A DNA stretch of 64,000 nt from Hydrolagus colliei (Eukaryota), in NCBI GenBank assembly GCA_035084275.1, contig CM068745.1, forward strand, positions 38,502,001 through 38,566,000. Reading direction: 5' to 3'. This document shows, one piece after another, positions 3,225 to 61,017 of this stretch. The position numbers and the translations under genes are program-made. The notes under the pieces were generated by a model. It did not search any database. It was given only the letters and a program-made list of their open reading frames with translations, and was not told where the DNA came from. Within the stretch, counting starts at the first letter, position 1. Each line of letters opens with the position of its first letter.

Positions 3225-3680
3225 CAAACACCTCCACGTAAAATTGGTCATTCATTTCATTGCTGTTTGTGAGGAGTATGTAGAGGGTGAAGAGGAGGGG
3301 ACTGAGGACAGAGCCCTGAGGAACGCCACACAAGATAGTGCGGGGGCTGGAAGAAAATCCGTTAGCGGACACTAAGTGGAATATGTTATGAAAGTTAAGA
3401 CCGGAACTAGTCAAGCACAGAACCTTGAAGTTTGAGGTGGGAGAAGAGGCAGTGGAGGAGGATTGAGTGTTTCACAGTATCAAAGGTGATGGATAGGTCG
3501 AAAAGGACGAGGAGGCAGAGGGAGCCCTGGTTACAAATGGTCAGGATATCATTTATGACATTTACCAGAGCAGTTTCCTTGCTGTGGGCAGCACGAAAGT
3601 CTGATTGTAGGGGCTTATGGAAGGAGTGGGATGAGAGGAAGGAGTGAAGCTGGGAGGCAACGACTCTTTCAAGGAGGAGC
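3225..3680 (-). mobile_element. L2 LINE reverse transcriptase fragment
   Basis: ORFs 3407-3730 (LERVVASQL...QSDFRAAHSKETALV...LVLFDLSITFDTV.H) and 3178-3414 (GVPQGSVLSPLLFTLY), which are RT domain motifs. Confidence 0.9.
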
Positions 3681-4089
3681 AAGATATCTGTGGATTGGGG
3701 TTCCCTTTCCCCAGAAAAACAAGTTAACATACTATGTCAAGCTCAGAAATTGTAGACAAATTAACCTAACATATGAGGCAAATGTGGAGAACATTATAAA
3801 GACCACATACATGGGATCTAAAACATGCTATTCAAATTATTTGCAATTATGGCATTTTAAACCCTTTGAAGGTACCATCAGCTTGAAGTTCGAAATGTTA
3901 AGTCATGTTTCACAAAGTTTGGGGGAAATACTGAAATGTGAATAAAGCTCTCAAGTGGACATAACAGACTTGGATTACCCACACCCACCACAAAAAAAGC
4001 ATATGTTAGAATTCCAAATGTAAGTCTTTTAAAGAGTAAATTTCATTTAATGAAATTGACTTGACAGCTCAAGATAATATTTTGAATAG

Positions 4090-5640
4090 CTGTACACCCA
4101 TCGAGCTTGATTGATTGAAAATATGCTTAGTACAGTAGTAGGAAGCCCGAGGCAGTGAGTTGTGGAGCTTGAAAAGAGTCTGTTCCATATCCCCTACTGT
4201 TCACCCTATTCATAAATGACTTGAAGGAGAGCACTTTACGTAATATTATAACATCTACTAATGATATCAAGCTATGTTTTCAGATGAACAATATAAAGAA
4301 TGATATAAAGAGGACAAGAAGTAGCGTACAAGAAATTCTGGACTAATTAAGCAGATGTTATCAAGAATAGAGGATGGATTTTAATATAGATCAATATAAA
4401 TTAATGCATATTACACCATATGCATGCAATAGGTTTCAGTTTTTGGTTCTGGACCAGAAATGACTTTGAATGTGATTACTATATTGACCATGCACTGAAA
4501 GTTTCCAAACAGTGTGAAGCTACTGTCAACAAAACTGATCAAACTAATCAAATACTTCAGAAAGATACTTGACTGAAACTCAAAATACATTATTCTAACT
4601 GCACAGATCACCTGCAAGATCACATGTGGAATATTATGTGCAGGATATTGATGCATTGCAAAAGATTCATAGAAAATAAAACAACATTGGATTTTGGAAT
4701 GTGGCATTCAACACCTATTATTTTTTGAGATAGTAACATGCTGATTTGACAGTTGTAAAGCACAATGTATATAAACACATATACAAAGAACCAGATGAAA
4801 CATAGAAAGTTAATTGTAAAACATGGACTTGAATTAGTAATTGGTAAAGGGCAGTATGTAGAGGATAATCTTTACAAGAGCTAAGTCCCAATAATGGCGT
4901 AATATTGATGTTTTCTATATGTGTGGCGGGGGTGGGTTGGTGGGGGGGTACTAAGTACTAAGAGAGGTTTATACTAGGAACCATTCTGGTTCTACCATAA
5001 ATAAGATAACCAAGCTCAATGTATTGGCAGTTGACATTAAACTAGGAGGGAACTGTTGAATTGGAGGATTGGGCTGATGGACACCGTACTCATTTGAAAC
5101 TACTGTAATAAATTCTGGAATTATAAAATCAAAAGCCTTTTCCATCCATCCAACATCCATACTACTGTAATTTTTGGAAAGATTTGCAAATATGTGAAAT
5201 TTTTTTAAATTGTTGCTGAGGGGAGAGGGAACATAAATGGGTCTTGGAGACATGAATGATGTCAGAAAAACAAACTATTGGATTTACACCATGAAAGTAG
5301 GATTAGAGGAATTAACTTTAATTGTAGAAGGTCTTAAACAGTACTGGAGATTATTTTTCTTGCCAAATGATGTATAGGTGGAATAGGTTCCTAAGAAATG
5401 CAATTAAAAACTGCTGGATATGTATCTGCTTGAAAATGTTAGTGTAAAATATAGGGGTAGATCCAGAATTAGGTGAACAAATCTTGTGTGAGACACAACT
5501 ATATCTGTGCTGCAAGAGTGCAGGTGGGGGATTTGGCTGAAGGAAGAGGGCACAGCATACAGAGGATGTGTGGATGGATTCATACTCTTTAATTTTTGCT
5601 TTAAAACTTTCCCCAGGAGATTGTAGAATTGGTGGAATGA
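4090..5640 (+). mobile_element. Very old CR1-like LINE relics
   Basis: CCCCTACTGTTCACCCTATTCATAAATGACTTG (PLLF.LFINDL), MDFNIDQYKLMH-like stretch, later RIVELVE/W remnant. Confidence 0.45.
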
Positions 5641-8984: not shown

Positions 8985-9990
8985 GCAAACAGATCCCTGC
9001 TGCACATGTGAAGAGCACATTTCAAGTTTGTTAATGAATGCTTCTATCCGATCATTAACAATGAAAACATTTGCATTTCATCCCTGAAGTGATACATTGA
9101 GAGAATTCAGTCATTCCAATATGTCTCCCAGATAATCCATTGAAGCACGTCAACAAAGCAAGCCAACGAGTGTCGCTGAATTGTCGCTGAACTCTCCTAC
9201 AAATGGAGAGTTACTATTAGCAAAATAAGTATGTGCAGTTCACGGTGTCTCGTACCTTACCCCTGAACAGCCAACTAACCTCCGTATGCAGCAATAACTG
9301 TGTGAAGTTTGCCCTCACCTCTTTGAATGAAATGGCAAAAAGCCTTGAATTACTTGGCTGTGCCTTTATAAAGCTCACAATTTTCACTACATTAGTGGAA
9401 ATATTGCTGAATTTCTCCAGCATCTTCATGGCAGCAAACACTTGTCTGTGGATCATGGAATTATTCCAGATGACTGAAGGGGCAAGTGCCTGCAACCTTG
9501 TCACAAGCCTGCTATGCCGTCTTGACTTAGAGCAGGCAATTCCATCGATACAAATTCCCAAATAATATCCCCAATCAAGGCATGTATCTTGGAAAAAATA
9601 TTTAATATGTTAAAAAGCCCTTCACCAACTACTCATGTAGGTAATGAACAGCAAAACAGAAATTATTCCTTCAGTTCTGTACCAGTGAAATAATAATATA
9701 TATAAACCAACAGGTGTGCAGCGTTCGATATATTGGTAGAATCGGCAGTCTGAATGATACAGTATGGGCTCTGCAGAACACACTGATACTAAGGTACAGT
9801 GCCTTATTGCCAGACACCAGCTTAACATAAAGGATTGCGTACTGTCATTTGTCCAAACTTTATTATATACAACCCATTAAGGCTGTGACACAACGCTCGA
9901 TCCACTCCATCAGAAATCCCAGTTGTAAATAAATTCTGTTTTGCTAGAAGCTTTGCTGCTGCCTTCACTTTTTCTTGTTGGATACCGGTA
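8985..9990 (-). pseudogene. Degraded hAT-Charlie/Buster (ZBED5/SCAND3-like) transposase
   Basis: ORF 9217-9561: GICIDG...MIHRQVFAA...VVKIVSFIKAQPSNSRLF...LLLHTEVSWLFRGKV matches the Charlie motifs TDGA, CxxH and HTEVRWLSRGK; downstream LNSLNVSLQG...IEAFINKL; stops and frameshifts on both sides. Confidence 0.85.
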
Positions 9991-14530: not shown

Positions 14531-14963
14531 AAATGGGGCAAGATTTGTACATAGATATGTTTCATAGAGTTTCCATGTCTGGAATGGAATACACATTTTT
14601 CCTCTAGAAAGCCACCGCCTGCTTAACCAATTCTGGAATATATAAGCCATAGATTGGCAGGAGCTTAAGCACAGGATCCTAGAGTATGCTTGGGTACTGC
14701 TGGAGTCTAACCAGATAAAACCGCATAGCTTGCCATTGAATGAGATCAAATTTAATATCTGGCAATCTTCCTATTGCTTGTCCAGCTGGGATCACCCTAC
14801 ACATTGGGGTTTGCGCTTACAGGATTAACAGGAGCTGAAAGCTAAAAACAGGAGTAGATTGATAGATTTAATGTCTTTAGCTCACTCTTTCCCTCCACCC
14901 CCAGAAATCAAAGGAGACATGTATGTGATACGAAGAAGGAATGTATATTTCTATTCTGTCAAC

Positions 14964-15515
14964 TAGGGTCCGGCGATATACCGATATATCGCTGAAACCC
15001 GATATGATTTTCATATCGATACGCCGATATAGGCATTTTAAAAATATCGATATATCAAAAGACGGCTGGGGGGTTGGGAGGGGGAGATAGATGCTGGGGG
15101 CGGTGGTGGGAGAGAGAGACGGCTGGGGGGGTGGTGGGTAGAGAGATGGCTGGGGGGGGAGGGAGAGACGGCGGGTGGGGTGTGGGGAGAGACGGGTGGA
15201 TGTGATAATATACAAATAGATAGAGATGGAGGGGATGTGAGAGAGACACAGAGACACAGACAGAAAAACACAGAGATGGAGAGACTGAGAGACACAGAGA
15301 GAGAAAGATATTTACCTCCTGAGGAGATAGGTCCCGAATGCGCACGCACCCCGAATGCGCATGCACCCAGAACGCGCACGCACTCCGAATGCGCGCGCAC
15401 TTGCTTTGCGCGCATGCGCAGTACGAAAAAACCCAAAATATCGATATTTCGGTATATCTCGATATGAGCCCATCGATATATCTAAATCGGAAAATTTCCA
15501 TATCGACGGACCCTA
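14964..15515. mobile_element. Non-autonomous hAT element (MITE), copy 1
   Basis: TIRs TAGGGTCCG / CGGACCCTA; perfect 8-bp TSD CTGTCAAC (14956-14963 and 15516-15523); many subterminal CGATAT motifs. Confidence 0.92.
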
Positions 15516-15559
15516 CTGTCAACCCATGCCTCTAATCTTTGTATAAATTGAAGCGTATT

Positions 15560-45789: not shown

Positions 45790-46029
45790 AGAAAAGTACT
45801 TCAGAGAGTAGCTGTCGACGTTCTGGCAGTATGTGCAAATTCCAATTAAACATTCCAGTAATTGGGCATTGGAGTTAACTGGAAATACCAATCCGAGTGG
45901 CTAATTGTGATTCGGTGGAGCCACCTTTGAACAGGGACTAACAGTGACAGAGTTAAGAGAGAGCAGAGGCCATTTAGTACAAAAACATTACTAAAGTTCG
46001 CACATATATCAAGGAGTGAGGATCGTTGC

Positions 46030-46258
46030 ATTGACTGTATATTTGTGGGTGAAACACAGCAGCCAATTGCACATAGCAGTGTCCCACAAACAGTCATGGA
46101 TTGAAATTGACCAATTTTTTGGGGGGGGGTTTTCGTGGGATTATTATTAGGCATGTGGAGTAAGGAAACTTGCCCAAGGTTTCACCCTGCCTGGAATTGA
46201 ACCCAGTTCTCTTGCTTGCAAGGTGAGTGCTCTAACCACTTCGCTACAGATTTCCACA
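46030..46258 (-). mobile_element. Deu-core SINE (short subfamily)
   Basis: Core plus reverse tRNA-like head. Confidence 0.88.
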
Positions 46259-46446
46259 ATAAAATGGTTATAATATTAAAATGAGAATCCAGAATCAAAT
46301 GGTTATTTGATGGTGGTATTAAAATGATTACCAACGTATGGTTCATAATGGCAAAGTTAAGCAAAAGTATATACACATTCCCATGATGCATCATTCTTAT
46401 GCAAGGAATAGTTCATCCAGGATGTTTCACTTTGTTGACCCATCAT

Positions 46447-46820
46447 GGAGTCCTGTAACTCAGTGGTTAGAGCAGCCACCTCGCAACCTTGGTTTGACTC
46501 CCTGCAAAGCAAAATGTTGGACAAGTTTCCTTACTCCACACACCTCTGTTTACCAAGCAGTAAGTAGGAACCCAGTTAGGTGTTTGGCGGATCGCCTTTC
46601 CATGGTTTATATTCCTACAAATGACAATAATAATAAATTGGTCACTTCAATCCATGATTTGTACTGTTTTGTTAGTGGGACACTGCTGTGAGCAATTTGC
46701 TGCCACATTTTGCTTACAAAATATATAGTCAATTCACTTTACAGTATATTCTGTGAAGCAATTTCAGGCATCTCGAAGATGTGATGAGGCCCTGTATCAA
46801 ATGCAAGGATTATTATTATA
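46447..46820 (+). mobile_element. Full-length Deu-core SINE (long subfamily)
   Basis: TGGAGTCCTGTAACTCAGTGGTTAGAGCA head, ACCTCTGTTTACC insert, core, (ATT)n tail. Confidence 0.9.
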
Positions 46821-47779: not shown

Positions 47780-48160
47780 TATACAAGAAAGAAAAAAAAG
47801 ACAAATGCTGTGACTCAATCACTAAACTGGATAAAATCACAATCACAAGCACAAACATATATAGCCTAATTTACAGAGGAAACATTACAATCAGTTTTAT
47901 ATTTTTGAGAATATGCAATAATTCTATTACTTTCTCTTATTACTCTAATTTCAACAACCGATCAGGCACATGGTATTCTTTGACTCCACCGAGTTTAGCA
48001 AAAGTGAGCAATTTGGATTGGATTACAATCTGCAGCTACCCACTCCCAGAACAGTTCAGTACTGTACAATCAAACCCAACCTGCTCAGTATCAATGAACC
48101 ATTCTGCAGTGTTGCCAGCTCCTCATTATGCTGGCAGAGCAGGATCTGACAGGTTCCAGG

Positions 48161-50376
48161 CAGGGCCGTACGCAGGATGTTTAATGGGGGGGTGCGAATT
48201 GCTAGTGATGGGACCAACAATGGCCGGGGGCTTGGGGGCTGCCCCCGAAGCCCCCTCGAGGCTCCGACGTTTTACACAGTTTGAGGTCTTATTTAATCGA
48301 TTCAGAAGATCCAATATGAACGGTAAATGTTTCATGCCCTTGGTGTTTAAGAGCATCATTATTTATTCAGTGTTTTTATTTTCCCCGGTAGTCCGTGTCT
48401 AATTCGGAAGGTCGAATGTGTTCGCCGATAAAAGCAAACACGATTGTTGACTCGATGATGTATGGAAAGCGAACGATAAAGTAAATTACAATCCAATTAA
48501 CACAGTACAATGACGAATGCTTGATAAATGTATGCGTATAGAGAAAATGATCATAAACTACAGATTGACGGTAATTAATAAGTTGTTCTGCATTGTTATC
48601 CTAAGACTAAATTTCTTTCGGACTGTAATGAACAATAATGTAAGAGTAAAGCATGAATTATGTGCTCAGATATTCCAGCAAAGCAAATTTTATAAAAGAC
48701 AAGAAAATATACAGAAACTGAAAATCAGTGTCAAACAGTTAATTCACACGTGTTACAAGCCTGTTATCAGCATTATCCTGAAAATATCGTTGAACTGTGA
48801 GCAATAGTGTAGTTAGTTTTTATTTATTTATTTAGAATCAAAATGAAAGGCAGTGACCCATCAAGCAATACTGACCTGACGAAAAAATACTTGAAAAAAT
48901 AAGGGAGGGGAAATTAATTCTTTAATAGCGTTCCGTATTCGAGACGCCTCGGTCGCTTTGAAGCCAATACGTCAACCGCTCTACCAATATCGATTTCCAT
49001 ATTATAATGAATGTGCATTAACGCGAGGGCTGAAAGTCGCTCCTATACGGAGCAGAATGCTGGACACTTAGGCAAACCTTGACCAGGAGATTAGATGACT
49101 CGTGAGGTATATACCAGGCTTCTAAGAGACGCCCTGAACGTTTACTGGCGACAGCATCTGACAAATAGCTATATGGTACACTACCACACTGGTATCACAG
49201 ACATTACTGCAGAGGCGTCTTAGGTTTAGCGGACATAGCTGGAGAAGCCGGGAGGGAACCATTGCACGGTCACAGAACACGAGGTAGACCGGCCCTAACC
49301 TACATCGATACTCTGGAGCGCGATTGGGGTATTGGCAGGCGGGAGTTGTCAGGCTGCATGGAGAGAAGGGATCAGTGGAGAAGTGTGGTTGTCAATGCCC
49401 GAGTTCGCTCGATCAGATGACGGTGAAACTATTTTTATGCCAAATTCGTGCGACATTGATGTTTTTTCACTCTGGGTACAAAACTGAATGTGAAATAAAG
49501 TCGCACTGTTTATCTTTGCGGTCATATGTTTTTTGCATGCCAGTGGACGTCTCTAAAAGCAATTTTTAATGACAGGAATACATTTTTAATAATATAAATC
49601 AAATGTGATAATCAAGACAAAACAAGAAACGTGATATTTCAGAAACACGCCTATCAAAACTTAAGTCATTTTTACTTACATTTATCAGATTAAAATACGA
49701 TTTCAGCTTCCACAAAGTGGTGCTACCTTTTTATGTAGTGACTGTATACGGGATGATTTCCGATTGACACACCACGTGGAATAGGCGCTAAAGCCTAGGC
49801 CTACGTCCATGAGTATTTTTTTAAAAGATAGGCATTCCCGTCCAGACACATATAACTTTTTTGTTGGGTTCTCAAAAGCTTTAATTTCTCAGAAGCTTGT
49901 ACATATGTTGTCATTGTTTGCTAGCATTACAGTCACACCTCTCAAAACTTGAGTAATTTTTACTTACGGTGATCAGATGAAAAGATGATTTTAACTCCAG
50001 AATTGGTGCTGTCCCTTGTGGCTGTTTACGGGATGATTTCCAAACGAGGATTTGAGTCTTGGCGCCTATGTTTATCCAATCACGAGTCACAGACTCGCCG
50101 CGTCATGGACTGGTCTATCCACGCGGTATGTTTTGGGTAGACGCCGATTCTGGTGTGCGACTCGATAATTTTATATTAATACTAAATCATTCAAAGATGT
50201 GAGTTTATAATTTAAATATAGTTTTGAAGAACTGATTGTTGCACAAATGGTCAATAAATTTACTTGGTATTTAAATTTGATAAAAAATGCAATTCTCTAC
50301 CCCGGAAAATGTGGACCTTTTATAATTTGGGGGGGGTGCGTACGCACCCGTCGCACCCCCCCTGCGTACGGCCTTG
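48161..50376. mobile_element. 2.2-kb non-autonomous TIR DNA transposon (hAT-like termini), CpG-rich
   Basis: TIRs CAGGGCCGTACGCAGG / CCTGCGTACGGCCTTG (15/16); flanking direct repeat CCAGG on both sides; GGGGGGTGCG subterminal motifs; no transposase ORF. Confidence 0.85.
49030..49425 (+). mobile_element. 5'-truncated RTE-clade LINE 3' end nested in the DNA transposon
   Basis: Frameshifted translation LLYGAECWTL...YTRLLRDALNVYWRQHLTN..LYG...LQRRLRFSGHSWR...RGRPALTYIDTLERD...MERRDQWRSVVVNARVRSIR*, typical of the RTE/RTE-X C-terminus. Confidence 0.8.
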
Positions 50377-52292
50377 CCAGGTACTCTACTAAAGCAATGG
50401 TTCCTAGCCCCACTGAAATATTTATTTGATAGCAATGTTATTTTTCTGAAATTTCTAGTGGGATCATGTTGAACTATATTTTGTTTCTCTTTTAAAAGCC
50501 ACAAGAGGCAAGGGGTTGATTTATTACAAAATATTATAAAATCTTACTCTTAACCATGAGATAGGATCTGAAATGCCATAAAAATAATATTTTGCTAAAT
50601 AAATATTCCCATCAAAGGTATAAATATTATACTTGTACAGTATCAGGGTTCCTCAATCATGAGAATTAATAAAAATGAAACACTGTAAATCTTTCCTTAA
50701 ATCAGATATGTTTTTATTATAACAAATATTTTATTTATTCCAAATGGTTATGTTATAATTTTACACACTTAATGTAAAGTTGGCAACAGGATGATAATTG
50801 TCAAATAATATGCTTTCATTAGAAACTGTTGCTATCTTAATTCTCATTTTTGTTGTTACATGTACAAGCCATGAAAATTCACTCAGAAATATCGAAAAAT
50901 TCCCATTGTACTTGTAATTTCAGAATTACAATGGAATCCCATTAAATGTTTCCCACATCACTTAGTCGTTTGTGTCTGCATTTCTACCTTGATTCAGCAG
51001 TTAAATAATTTCAAGAGGTGACAGGACAGTAAATCCTGCCAGCAGTAATGAAGTACTAAGCATAAAGTACTTTCTGACATGGAATGAGGATTTCAATGCA
51101 GACCAAGTCTAAGCAATTAGAAACAATATCCATACTTTCATAAAGATATTCTAAATTCTGAACAATCATATTTGAGCTGAGAACAGCAATTGTTTTTGAG
51201 TGAAAAATGTGATGCGATATCACTTGTGATGATTATCAAAGTGCTGAAAATAGTCTTTATGAATTAGTTTGGGTTTGATCAGTACCTACGTTAGTACACC
51301 TCTTTGATCCTAAACTTGCAATCATGTCATTGACTGCAGAGTGCATCTTAGTACCACTGTACAGGGTACTTGCTCACCTCAGTTAAAATTAAGCCATTCT
51401 CCCATGAAACAGCAGCAACAACTATGGTACTCTTAGACGAAACCATTGTGTCAAAGAAAAGATGTGTTCACAATGAAGCCTGTCAATAATTAAAAACTAT
51501 TTGAGATAGTCCAGAAAAACGAGGGATTAGATAGGGGAGAAATGCAGAGCAGACTCACTCAGTCCTGGAGTGCATGTGCGTAAATGCACGGAGTGTGACA
51601 AATAAGATTAGTGAGCTGCAGGCTCAATTTGCCATATAGGGTTATGATGTAGTGACAATAATGGAGACCTGGCTCAAACAACAACAAAAAATTACGTTTA
51701 TAGAGGGCCTTTTATGTTGAGAGGATGTTCCAAGGTCCTGGAAAGGGACAATATGTTAGAGGGTCCAAAAATAGAATCTAGTTGGTTAGAGTTAAGGAGC
51801 AGAAAAGGGGCTGTTTACTCTGATAGGTGTAAACTATAGACCACCAAATAGTGGGAAGGAGACAGACGAGTAAATCCATAAACAGATTTCAGAAAAATGC
51901 AATAATGTAGGATTCCAATTATCCAGAAATAGACTAGAAAAATAACAGTGTAAAGGGCAAGGAGTGGGGAGAATTCCTGAAATGCATGCAGGGCAACTTT
52001 CAGTATGTTTCCAGCCCAATGAGGGAGAAATCAGTGCTGTTTATAGTTCTGGGAAATGAAGTGGGGGCAAGTGGAACAGGTTTCAGTAGGAGAGCATCTG
52101 GACAACAGTGATCACAGCATCATTAGGTTTAGAGTATTTATGGAATGGGACAAGGAATAATCAACGGTGACGATAGTCAATGGGAAGAAGGCTAATTTCA
52201 CTGAGTTAAAAAGGGACCTAGCCAAGGTGGACTGGAAAGAAAGATTGGCGGGCACAACAGTTAATGAGCAATAGAAATCCTTCAAGGAGGAG

Positions 52293-52617
52293 ATAATAAT
52301 AATACTAATAATAATTCTTGCATTTTGATATAGCGCTTTTCACATATTCTAGACACCTCAAAGTGCTTCACAGAATATACCGTCAAGTGAATTGATTGTA
52401 TATTTGTGGGAGAAATGCGGCAGCCAATTGCACACAGCAGGGTCCCACAAACAGTCGTGGATTGAAATAAACAATTTTATTATTGTGGGTTTTTTGGAGG
52501 GATTATTATTAGGCGTGTGGAAACTTACCCAAGGTTTTGCCCTGACCTGCCTGGATTCGAACACAGGTCTCACGATTGTAAGGTGAGTGCTCTAACCACT
52601 GAGCTACAAGACTCCAC
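52293..52617 (-). mobile_element. Full-length Deu-core SINE nested in CR1
   Basis: (AAT)n tail, core, reverse head ending GACTCCAC. Confidence 0.9.
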
Positions 52618-52786
52618 AATAGTTTGGGGACAGAACAAATCCATTCTCATGAAGAGGAAAAGTTGGGCATCCAAACCTCCCTGTATGACGAAGACAATTG
52701 TGATTAGAATAAAACAGAAAAAGGAGGCTTATGATAAATGTCATGTCCAAACTACAGAAGATAATCAAATAGAATATAGAATGTAT

Positions 52787-53325
52787 AACAACAACAAAAT
52801 TACATTTGTTGAGTACCTCCCAAGTCGCTGAACAGTTAGGCGTCAGGACCTGAGCATGGAGGCAGGCTGGTGTTGAAGGAGGGCAGAGAATTATGGGGGC
52901 GGCTGCAGGCATGGTCAAAAAGGAGGGTCTTGAATCGGGCCTTAAAGGAGGCAAGGGAGAGAGCAAGTTGAAAAGATTATGGGATGTAATTCGAAGGAGT
53001 GGAAGCAGAGAGGCTGAAAGCCTGGCCGCCAATCGTCAGGCGGGTCTGGCGGGAGACATGGAGCAGGTTGGAGCTTGCTGAACAGAGGAAGCAGACAGGT
53101 TAATAGGGTGTCAGCAGGTCAAAGAGGTAGAAGGGGGTAAGGGCATGGAGGGCCTCATGTTCTCTCTGAAATTGAGAACAAGGATCTTGAATTCTATCCT
53201 CCTAGGGATGGAGAGCCAGTGGAGCCGAGAAAGGGTGAGAGTGATGGGATCATTGATATTGGATCTGCATCTTGTGGAGGAAAGATTTGAGGAGACCCAC
53301 AAGGAAGTAGTTTCCATAGTCAACC
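52787..53325 (-). mobile_element. L2 3' fragment nested in CR1
   Basis: ORF 53111-53371 LSRLHWLSIPRRIEFKILVL; (CAA)n tail at 52787. Confidence 0.85.
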
Positions 53326-58538: not shown

Positions 58539-59167
58539 TAGGGTCCAGCGATATATCGGTTATATAGATATAATTTTTCATATTGATATGCCGATATCGG
58601 AATTTAAAATATATCAATATATCGAAAAATTCGATATGAAAAAATATATCGGTATATCGTAAATATCGGTATATCGTTTCCGGTATAAAGCAATCTTTTC
58701 CGGCTTAGCTTGTCAACAGCATTGCAACCTCCTGGGCCTAGAGCATGGAATGCACGTGCATATCGGAAAGCGCTCGTACCTTCGAATGCGCACGTGCCCC
58801 CAAATGCGGACACGCCTCCGAATGCTCACACGCCCCGAATACGCCCGCACATCCGAATGCGTGTGCACCTCCAAATGCACGCGCACCCCCGAATGCGCGC
58901 GCACCTCCGAATGCTCACACCCCCCCGAATGTGCGCGCACATCCGAATGCATGTGCGTCTCCGAATGCGCGCGCACCTCCAAATGCGTGCGTACCTCTGA
59001 ATGCGTGCACACCTCCGAATGCGCACGCACCCCTGAATGTGCGCGCACCCCAGAATGCGCGCCCATGTGCAGTATAAAACCCCCCGGAAATATCGATATA
59101 TCAGTATATATCGATATGAGCCGACCGATATATCGATATCGGAAAGTTTCCATATCGACGGACCCTA
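58539..59167. mobile_element. Non-autonomous hAT element (MITE), copy 2
   Basis: TIRs TAGGGTCC / GGACCCTA; perfect 8-bp TSD CTAGAAAG (58531-58538 and 59168-59175); right end nearly identical to copy 1. Confidence 0.93.
58748..59070. repeat. 18-bp minisatellite GAATGCGCGCGCACCTCC, about 17-18 units
   Basis: Units counted by eye, contiguous with no spacers. Confidence 0.9.
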
Positions 59168-59184
59168 CTAGAAAGATATTTCTA

Positions 59185-61017
59185 CAACAACAACAACAAA
59201 ATTGCATTTGTACAGCACCTTTCACATCGGGAGGACATCCCAAGGTGCTTGACAGTCAATGTTTCAGAACCAAGCTGGGGGTTAGGATTGGGGAGGATGG
59301 AGGAAAAGGAGGGGATTTGGGGTGACCAATGGGACCATCGAAGAGGAGGGTCTTGAGGCAGGATGTGATGGAGGCTCGGGAGGGGACAAGGTGGAAGGAC
59401 TGTGGGATGGAATTCCAGAGGTTAGATCAGAATAGCTGAAGGCTTGCCTGCCAATGGTGGGGCGGGTGGTTCAGGGCATGTGGAGCAGGCAGGAGACTAC
59501 TGAGTGGAGGGGACAGGTAGGGTGTTAGGAGGTAACAGAGGTAGTGTGGGGCAAGGCCATGGAGGGCTTTGAAGTTGAGGACCAGGATCTTTAATTAAAT
59601 CCTCTGGGTGATGGGGAACCAATGGTTAAGTGAGAATAGGGAAGATGGGGTCACAGAGCTTTACGCGCTCTGAGATGCCGTCCTGTGTGGAGGGTACTAT
59701 ATAAATCCAAGTTGTTATTGTTGTAGCTTGGAGCAGTAGAAGACATGAGCCGCAGAGTTCTGGATTATCTGCAACCTATGGAGGGAGGAATTTAGAAGGC
59801 CAACAAGCAGGGCATTAGCATAGTCGAGCCTGCATGTAATGAAGTCATGAATGAGGGTTTCAGCATCCTGAGGGGCATAATAGTTGCGAAGTCAGTCAAT
59901 ATTGCGCAGGTGAGGGAAGGCAAAGTGGGTCATGGCTTGGATGTGGGGGAGGAAAGACAGTTGAGGATAGAACAAGACACAGGTTCCTGACTGGCTTGGT
60001 GAGGTGGAGCATGCAAGCATGGAGGTTGATGCTGCCAGTGCCTGATGTGGGAAGGCGCTGGCACGAGCCAATCAAAAGGGCCACGGTCTTGTTCATTTTC
60101 AACTTTAGAAAGTTGGCTCTTATCCAGGACTTGATGTCTGACAGGCAGTCTGTCAGGACAGCAGTGGTCCTGGAATCGATGGTACAGACAGAAAGCTAGA
60201 GTTGGGTGTCATCCGCGTACATGTGGAAGTTGACCCCATGTCTGTGGATAATGTCGCCAAGGGGGAGCATGTAGATATTAATAATAATAATGTAATAATC
60301 CTTGAATTTTGTTATAGCATTTTTCACGTCTTCTAGACGTCTCAATGCACTTCACAGAATATACTGTAAATGAGTTGACTATATATTTGCAGGCGAAACA
60401 CAGCAACCAATTGCACACAGTAGTCATGGATTGAAAAATAGGGGGCCAAAGACAGAACCCTTGGTGACAGTGCGGGGCCTAGAAGAGAAACCATTGGTGG
60501 TCACAAAGTGGAGATGGTGAGAAAGGTAAGAGTCAAACCAGGCGAGGGCAGGTCAATGAAGATTGAGCTGGGAAGAGAGGCAGTGTAGGAGAATGGAATG
60601 TCAAGGAGGACAAGAAGGCAGAGAGAGCCTTGGTCACAGATGTTTAAACTATCATTGGAGATTTTGACCAGAGCTGTCTCCATACTATGGGCAGCACAGA
60701 AATCAGATTGTACGGTTCAAAGAAGGAATGACGAGAGAGAATGGACCGAAGCTGGGACTCAACAACCTATTCCAGAGCCTTAAAGAGGAAGGGGAGGTTG
60801 AAGATGGGCTGGTAGTTGGAGTAGGGATGGATCCAAAGGTGTGTAAATGGGTGGGAGGGGGTGGCTTCTGAGGGAGAGGTAACGGGAGTTACCAGTAGAT
60901 GGGATAGAGGTGGCTGAACTGATCCCCTCAATTTTAGATTCAAGGAAGTCCAGCACCTCCTCATAGTTGGAGGTGGAGAAGAGGATGGGTCAGGCATGGG
61001 AGGGTGGATGGAGGAGA
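59185..61017 (-). mobile_element. L2 LINE about 1.8 kb with a nested tail (59665-59724) and SINE (60280-60435)
   Basis: Reverse strand has [10 protein letters not shown] (60200-60230), ETALVKISND, NYQPIFNLPFLFKALE, LHW.PI.QRI.KILVL and the L2 tail at 59185. Confidence 0.92.

What the first reader, a model, noticed from the sequence alone, without database searches (positions are those of the whole stretch)
48161..50376. CpG-rich TIR transposon carrying a decayed RTE LINE: horizontal-transfer candidate
Seen: a 16-bp TIR pair bounds 2.2 kb that is AT-rich yet full of CpGs (e.g. TTCGGAAGGTCGAATGTGTTCGCCGAT), unlike the CpG-depleted flanks. Inside is an RTE-clade LINE 3' end (49030-49425) with frameshifts and deletions, a clade found nowhere else in this L2/CR1-dominated window. 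Established: globally methylated vertebrate genomes erode CpGs in repeats as they age. Inference: the cargo is decayed but kept its CpGs, so it probably decayed in a weakly methylated (e.g. invertebrate) genome and entered this one recently as a passenger of the DNA transposon.
Basis: partly seen in the sequence, partly recalled or inferred. Interest (0 to 1): 0.7.

Follow-up and report, generated by a model that had tools for sequence, protein, structure and literature searches.

The report
Imported transposon carrying a foreign LINE
This is a shortened copy of a young cut-and-paste transposon, present in many hundreds of copies in this vertebrate, that carries a piece of a retrotransposon not found on its own in the genome; its enzyme is closest to one from a deep-sea snail, so the pair likely arrived by horizontal transfer.

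Summary
In detail: 16-bp TIRs, a 5-bp target duplication, CpG o/e 1.03 against 0.29 in the flanks, and an RTE 3' fragment. The element is an internal-deletion derivative of a ~4.9-kb hAT5-type transposon. The RTE is a 5'-truncated insertion with its own 9-bp duplication inside the master. No free RTE copy was found: 634 of 655 RTE 3' ends sit in the hAT context, and the source-like RT region matches the host at 34% at best. The transposase groups with Gigantopelta aegis (78-86% aa) and an unnamed contig, not with fish hATs (AU p~1e-55). Horizontal transfer with the LINE as passenger is therefore likely. The CpG argument is weak: the RTE piece (0.74) is no richer than young host LINEs (0.77, 0.83) or RAG1 (0.67), and part of its decay happened in the host. 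Close relatives hold the element at far lower depth, so arrival likely predates their split. The donor is unidentified. The scan had not noted this family before.

The parts
48156..48160 (.). 5-bp target site duplication, left copy (CCAGG)
   Evidence: 22 of 30 copies have an exact 5-bp duplication, 3 a longer match, 5 none
48161..48176 (+). left 16-bp terminal inverted repeat
   Evidence: 1,632 exact TIR ends genome-wide, 0 in the control
48177..48913 (.). AT-rich subterminal arm downstream of the transposase gene; CpG o/e 1.01
   Evidence: 48161-48913; 94-98% identical to the same arm of full-length copies
48914..49039 (-). last ~41 codons and stop of the hAT transposase (dimerisation-domain end)
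   Evidence: tblastn with P0001 residues 804-845, 86% identity, E 8e-17; Pfam Dimer_Tnp_hAT at 761-816 of P0001
49039..49040 (.). junction of the ~2.6-kb internal deletion that removed most of the transposase, the spacer and the 5' end of the RTE piece
   Evidence: alignment with full-length copies; copies L097, L116, L117 match master positions 1-889 and 3514-4921
49040..49425 (+). 3' end of an RTE-clade LINE (ORF C-terminus, stop at 49418-49420, short GAT-type tail); 7-nt and 2-nt insertions shared by nearly all copies, 4-bp and 29-bp deletions that arose among host copies
49426..49434 (+). 3' copy of the 9-bp duplication (AAACTATTT) made by the RTE insertion; the 5' copy survives in the ~4.9-kb masters
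   Evidence: L068, L070-L072, L079
49646..50041 (+). two diverged ~110-bp direct repeats (49646-49761, 49934-50041) in the arm upstream of the transposase gene
   Evidence: function not tested
50361..50376 (-). right 16-bp terminal inverted repeat (one mismatch)
50377..50381 (.). 5-bp target site duplication, right copy (CCAGG)

Best explanation
The element is a 2.2-kb deletion derivative of a young, high-copy hAT transposon with 5-bp target duplications that carries an RTE LINE fragment, and the full-length parent likely entered this vertebrate lineage horizontally, probably from a marine invertebrate, with the fragment likely already on board. Order of events: (1) an RTE inserted, 5'-truncated and with a 9-bp duplication, into the arm upstream of the transposase gene (structure shown; that this happened outside the host is inferred from the lack of free copies and of an RTE-less parent). 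(2) The ~4.9-kb composite entered an ancestor of the host and three close relatives (inferred). (3) Internal deletions gave non-autonomous size classes of 1.3-2.7 kb (shown), which were likely moved in trans by intact copies through cut-and-paste. (4) A burst in the host species' lineage gave on the order of 1,000 copies (copy number shown, lineage restriction inferred from read depth), now evolving neutrally and losing CpGs. The RTE piece is likely inert cargo.
For: Family and youth: 35 near-full-length matches at 94-100% among 40 scored candidates; 30 copies 0.9-1.8% from the majority; 1,632 TIR ends. Parent: 4.5-4.9-kb copies with the same ends and a transposase; L053 has an 845-aa ORF with DUF4371 and Dimer_Tnp_hAT. 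Passenger: 9-bp duplication around the RTE in masters; 634 of 655 RTE 3' ends are followed by the hAT flank; the 4 exceptions among the first 100 listed and the top 20 protein hits all lie in the hAT; none of 117 scored hits of a 345-aa source-like RTE extends upstream of residue 193; its upstream 187 aa match the host at 34% at best, 95 of 95 candidates scored; 0 matches to the RTE-less junction. Source-like RTE family P0127/P0137 in unnamed metagenome contigs, 89% to a copy. Transposase: best hits an unnamed ENA protein (79% by BLASTP) and Gigantopelta aegis (78%, 82%), Hydra cluster 63%, the four named teleost genera 45-47% where given; 82-86% to the majority frame. The host groups with these at SH-aLRT 100; a host+teleost clade is rejected, p-AU 2e-55. 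The host is a jawed vertebrate (RAG1). Private changes in transposase copies are neutral: 76 synonymous of 264, 70 expected. CpG transitions run 2.7-fold above other C/G sites among copies, so CpG richness is not being maintained.
Against: The donor is not identified: the nearest transposase (P0002) and the source-like RTE cluster are unnamed, and could come from another vertebrate. No distant taxon with near-identical DNA was found; the 4 of 13 holder runs that were laid on the element include three organisms shown to be close relatives of the host. At 78-86% protein identity the snail element is a cousin, not the donor, and no DNA was available for Ks. Shark and ray hAT transposases may be under-represented in the protein database. 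CpG o/e does not separate the cargo from host coding DNA. Genome searches score only the best candidates, and the junction and 3'-end patterns allow few or no mismatches, so rare diverged free RTE copies could be missed; 17 of the 21 non-matching 3' ends were not inspected. Only 150 of 279 candidates were scored in the search for older transposase relatives.
Confidence: 0.75

Rival explanations
1. The composite arrived horizontally, but the immediate donor was another vertebrate (or a fish parasite carrying fish-derived DNA) in which the RTE family is active and methylated; the invertebrate link is one step further back.
For: The source-like RTE cluster and P0002 are unnamed. The stop fixed in 24 of 24 rows that keep this part is TGA where 31 of 49 matched homologues have Arg, as CpG deamination would give. 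Transfers among fishes are common (PMC7070016, abstract and parts 1-2 read).
Against: No named vertebrate protein lies above ~51% identity to the transposase among the 120 listed; the only named animal among the 120 listed RTE hits is a shrimp at 58%; the AT-rich arms have CpG o/e ~1.0. The stop is one site and could have arisen early in the host.
Confidence: 0.18
2. The hAT is an old vertically inherited resident that was recently reactivated, and it captured the RTE piece from a host family that has since vanished.
For: Three close relatives hold the element; young host retroelements have similar CpG o/e.
Against: 82-86% protein identity to a mollusc element across hundreds of residues while copies evolve neutrally; all 150 listed transposase hits are 85-100% identical, with no older tail among them; a LINE only ~5-10% diverged from its source should have left free copies, and none were found.
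Confidence: 0.05
3. The element is contamination or an assembly artefact from a co-sequenced invertebrate.
For: Foreign-looking composition.
Against: Hundreds of insertions with individual 5-bp duplications on chromosome-scale contigs; held by runs of several studies and organisms.
Confidence: 0.01

Closest known systems
hAT5 group of hAT DNA transposons (Kapitonov and Jurka 2007, as cited in PMC12730594; passages read)
   Same: hAT transposase with 5-bp instead of 8-bp target duplications; short TIRs; non-autonomous derivatives.
   Different: No reference hAT5 sequence was available, so clade membership was not tested; the master carries an RTE insertion.
Gigantopelta aegis proteins XP_041374266.1 and XP_041364202.1 (annotated ZMYM1-like / 52 kDa repressor-like)
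   Same: 78-82% identity to P0001, 82-86% to the majority frame; same starred clade.
   Different: 14-22% diverged, so not the donor; its TIRs, target duplication and any RTE cargo could not be seen.
MER6/MER6A (PMC6887750; abstract and passages read)
   Same: A retroelement piece (fish V-SINE) spread in genomes that lack the free element by riding a DNA transposon burst; horizontal transfer is raised as one option.
   Different: MER6 is an ancient mariner-derived MITE. Here the carrier is a young hAT with near-intact full-length copies, the cargo is a LINE ORF end with its own duplication, and a source-like family is in the databases.
Horizontal transposon transfer in vertebrates (PMC7070016; abstract and parts 1-2 of 7 read)
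   Same: DNA transposons evolve neutrally inside genomes after transfer, as seen here; aquatic bias.
   Different: That survey compared vertebrates with vertebrates, and 93.7% of events involved ray-finned fishes; this case links a likely non-teleost fish to invertebrates.

Membership tests
hAT superfamily | Transposase with hAT C-terminal dimerisation domain | tested here: met
   PF05699 36.4 bits (cut-off 21.4) and PF14291 in P0001 from full-length copy L053; tail present in the window
hAT superfamily | DDE triad with CxxH and conserved Trp | tested here: inconclusive
   Motifs ADEVT 347, GYDGA 411, HCSGH 440, TRW 506, CECERS 781 are present, but their catalytic assignment is recalled; the PDB sequence search gave no hAT hit
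hAT superfamily | Short TIRs | tested here: met
   16 bp
canonical hAT | 8-bp target site duplication | tested here: not met
   0 of 30 copies have 8 bp; 22 of 30 have 5 bp
hAT5 | hAT transposase with 5-bp target site duplication | tested here: met
   definition from PMC12730594
hAT5 | Phylogenetic grouping with reference hAT5 transposases | not testable with these tools
   no Repbase or Dfam sequences available
RTE-clade non-LTR retrotransposon (cargo) | ORF C-terminus contiguous with a reverse transcriptase domain in full-length relatives | tested here: met
   89% to P0127; cluster member P0137 extends into the RT region and its homologues carry PF00078. The clade label 'RTE' is recalled from motif resemblance; no clade reference tree was built
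RTE-clade non-LTR retrotransposon (cargo) | 5' truncation, short-repeat 3' tail and target duplication of a retrotransposed copy | tested here: met
   9-bp duplication and GAT-repeat tail in masters
Horizontally transferred element | Tree incongruent with host phylogeny | tested here: met
   (14 named or top rows, LG+G4 quick tree; the AU test on the 34-row mixture tree did not finish)
Horizontally transferred element | Synonymous divergence below that of orthologous genes | not testable with these tools
   no DNA of the invertebrate homologues was obtained
Horizontally transferred element | Patchy taxonomic distribution | tested here: inconclusive
   protein hits skip from this host to a mollusc and cnidarians; DNA holders laid on the flanks are close relatives only; no distant vertebrate genomes could be searched

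The most novel reading that the evidence does not exclude
A hAT5 transposon crossed from a deep-sea invertebrate into a cartilaginous-fish lineage carrying a LINE insertion that tags its previous host, so the donor can be named by finding the one genome that holds both the free RTE family and the empty hAT. The family may still be mobile through copies with a full-length open frame.
Probability: 0.5. Interest if true: 0.6.

Novelty: new member of a known kind. Interest (0 to 1): 0.46.

Why it matters
Horizontal transposon transfers usually lack a marker of direction or donor. Here a LINE insertion with its own target duplication rides inside the transposon while its family was not found free in the host, which gives a direction (into this host) and a testable fingerprint of the donor. 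It also shows a young DNA transposon burst in a genome of the L2/CR1-dominated type, described as poor in other transposons for the elephant shark (PMC5381603, passage read). And it is a caution: CpG richness here marks youth rather than foreign origin. Both horizontal transfer in aquatic animals and retroelement passengers in DNA transposons are already known.

Tried and rejected
CpG content of the cargo as proof of decay in an unmethylated genome: rejected (0.74 against 0.77, 0.83, 0.67). Organisms B, C and D as distant transfer partners: rejected, they share the host's unique flanks at 97-99%. Runs X5-X9 (unnamed) and X7 (fish gut metagenome) hold 0.44-0.45 of the words; X5 was laid only on the element, the others not at all, so they give no evidence on kinship or habitat. 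Empty orthologous site in relatives: no joint across 48160-50381 among the 15 listed of over 12,000 joints, so undecided. DNA of the RTE source family: the metagenome scan gave only 49%, 27% and 46% relatives. Viral vector: none of 10 and none of 8 candidate stretches in viral contigs encodes a relative; prokaryote genomes, none of 22. PDB sequence search: nothing relevant. The careful 34-row tree and its AU test did not finish; a quick tree and a 14-row test were used. Paper searches (listings only, except the papers named) showed no report of this family or transfer; Repbase and Dfam could not be searched, so the family may be catalogued there. Term look-ups in PMC7070016 and PMC6004678 returned no hits. 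No supplements were read.

Full report
Observation. The element runs from 48161 to 50376, bounded by 16-bp inverted repeats with one mismatch and flanked by a 5-bp duplication, CCAGG. CpG o/e is 1.03 at 40.6% GC, against 0.29 in each 3-kb flank; none of 287 equal-sized stretches elsewhere in the window exceeds 0.86. An RTE-like ORF end lies at 49040-49420 across shifting frames, with no second hit in the window.

The family. A DNA search of the own genome (1.0 Gb) gave 1,668 candidates; of 40 scored, 35 matches are near full length at 94-100%. The 30 best copies, which are biased towards the window copy, lie 0.9-1.8% from their majority, with mean pairwise distance 2.0%. Target duplications are 5 bp in 22 of 30, longer in 3 and absent in 5. 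The TIR 16-mer occurs 1,632 times, the control 0 times; 64 of the first 100 listed are left-type ends, which suggests about 1,000 elements. Twenty sampled elements fall into classes of about 1.3, 1.5, 1.6, 2.1, 2.25, 2.5-2.7 and 4.5 kb.

The parent. The 4.5-4.9-kb copies hold a transposase on the strand opposite to the RTE. L053 has an 845-aa ORF (P0001) with DUF4371 and Dimer_Tnp_hAT. The window copy keeps the last ~41 codons at 48914-49039, joined directly to the RTE piece; about 2.6 kb are deleted. A hAT transposase with 5-bp duplications matches the definition of hAT5 (PMC12730594, passages). Of 150 listed hits for the N-terminal region, all are 85-100% identical, and two have a frame of 850 aa or more with no stop in the match. 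Private substitutions in 14 transposase copies are neutral: 76 synonymous of 264 against 70 expected. Mobilisation of the short copies in trans by cut-and-paste follows from established hAT biology and is inferred.

The cargo. In the longest masters the RTE piece is about 470 bp, 5'-truncated, ends in a GAT-repeat tail and is flanked by a 9-bp duplication: a retrotransposition event into the hAT arm. A source-like family exists in unnamed metagenome contigs (P0127, 89% to a copy; 11 members, some extending into the reverse transcriptase); other relatives are at 60% or less. In the host, none of 117 scored hits to P0137 reaches upstream of residue 193. The upstream 187 residues match at 34% at best. 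634 of 655 exact RTE 3'-end matches are followed by the hAT flank, and the 4 exceptions among the first 100 listed, like the top 20 protein hits, are inside hAT copies; 17 exceptions were not inspected. A pattern for the hAT without the insertion has 0 matches at up to 2 mismatches. So the LINE was likely on board before the hAT reached this genome.

Origin of the carrier. Among 120 listed homologues, the best are an unnamed ENA protein and two Gigantopelta aegis proteins (78-82%), then a Hydra vulgaris cluster (63%); named teleost proteins are at 45-47% where identity is given. Against the majority frame the top three reach 82-86% and teleosts 47-51%. In a 34-row quick tree and a 14-row tree the host groups with the snail and the unnamed protein at SH-aLRT 100, inside a clade with Hydra and Stylophora; forcing host and teleosts together is rejected (p-AU 2e-55, 14 rows, LG+G4). 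The group was named before the tree was seen. The host is a jawed vertebrate (RAG1 in one 1,086-aa open frame). Its size and L2/CR1-type landscape resemble those described for the elephant shark (PMC5381603, passage), so a cartilaginous fish is likely; this is inference. Such identity between a vertebrate and a mollusc, for a gene that evolves neutrally in the host, is hard to explain without at least one horizontal transfer. The donor itself is not in hand.

Timing. Thirteen runs from 7 studies hold the element. Four laid on the master (X5, X10, X11, X13) cover nearly all of it, RTE included, at about 98%. X10, X11 and X13 also share the window's unique flanks at 97-99%, so they are close relatives. 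Relative to a neighbouring high-copy host repeat, depth over the element is about 200-700 times lower in these three than in X12, the organism whose flanks match the window (depth is not a copy number). Arrival therefore likely predates their split, and the large burst is likely specific to the host species' lineage.

The CpG argument. Within the element the RTE piece has the lowest o/e, 0.74, against 1.01 and 1.04 for the arms. An intact host L2-type ORF has 0.77 and a multi-copy intact RT ORF 0.83 (labels recalled); host RAG1 has 0.67. These controls are more GC-rich than the arms, which remain unusual. Among copies, singleton transitions occur at 32 of 186 CpG positions against 46 of 721 other C/G positions (p 1e-5), so the host is eroding the CpGs and the richness reflects youth. 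Part of the cargo's decay is host-era: the 29-bp deletion is in 2 of 30 copies, the 4-bp deletion is absent from about 9 of 30, and two residues that match the source family survive in relatives and in 7 of 82 host rows, some of them duplicate loci. Shared by nearly all measurable rows are a 7-nt insertion (70 of 77 at that spacing), a 2-nt insertion (80 of 80) and a stop (24 of 24); these could date from the donor or from early in the host. The stop stands where 31 of 49 matched homologues have Arg, as CpG deamination would give: a weak hint against an unmethylated history.

Comparison and novelty. A retroelement piece spread by a DNA transposon is known from MER6 (PMC6887750, abstract and passages), and horizontal transfer is common in aquatic vertebrates (PMC7070016, abstract and parts 1-2; PMC5055719, abstract). 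Seven paper searches showed no report of this family; Repbase and Dfam could not be checked. The scan's notes hold a different CpG-rich hAT MITE family in this genome and nothing like this transposase. Verdict: a real, young hAT5-type family, likely horizontally acquired with a LINE passenger that can fingerprint the donor; a new member of a known kind, interest 0.46.

Noticed in passing
window 58700-59300 and about 14900-15530: Two related palindromic, MITE-like elements, one with an 18-bp tandem array (58748-59062, 17.6 copies); the 1-kb bins have CpG o/e 1.09 and 0.73, so other host repeats are also CpG-rich.
   Followed up: no
window 9220-9609 (minus): 130-aa open frame resembling an old hAT-Charlie/ZBED-type transposase remnant (resemblance recalled, not tested).
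   Followed up: no
L101-L109: Near-identical intact reverse-transcriptase ORFs of up to 1,058 aa near contig ends, likely R2-type elements in rDNA (label recalled); used only as a CpG control.
   Followed up: partly
G000:C3 104.1-104.85 Mb (L058-L061, L063) and C36: Clusters of near-identical full-length copies sharing flanks and stops, likely segmental duplications rather than transpositions.
   Followed up: no
L068:676-4870 (runs X5, X10, X11, X13): All four laid runs show a joint that skips 4.2 kb, a ~0.7-kb miniature derivative, deeper than the full element in X5 and X10; some also carry 92- and 142-base segments absent from L068.
   Followed up: no
L051-L053, L055, L059, L060, L065: A 4.5-4.6-kb subfamily, including the intact-ORF copy, has deleted most of the RTE piece by a short-homology deletion and keeps only its last ~140 bp.
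   Followed up: partly
G000:C517:177396-178088: A second copy with an 851-aa open frame, besides L053.
   Followed up: no
window 46027-46820 and 52300-52800: Very high-copy host repeats, SINE-like, in inverted orientation on either side of the element.
   Followed up: no
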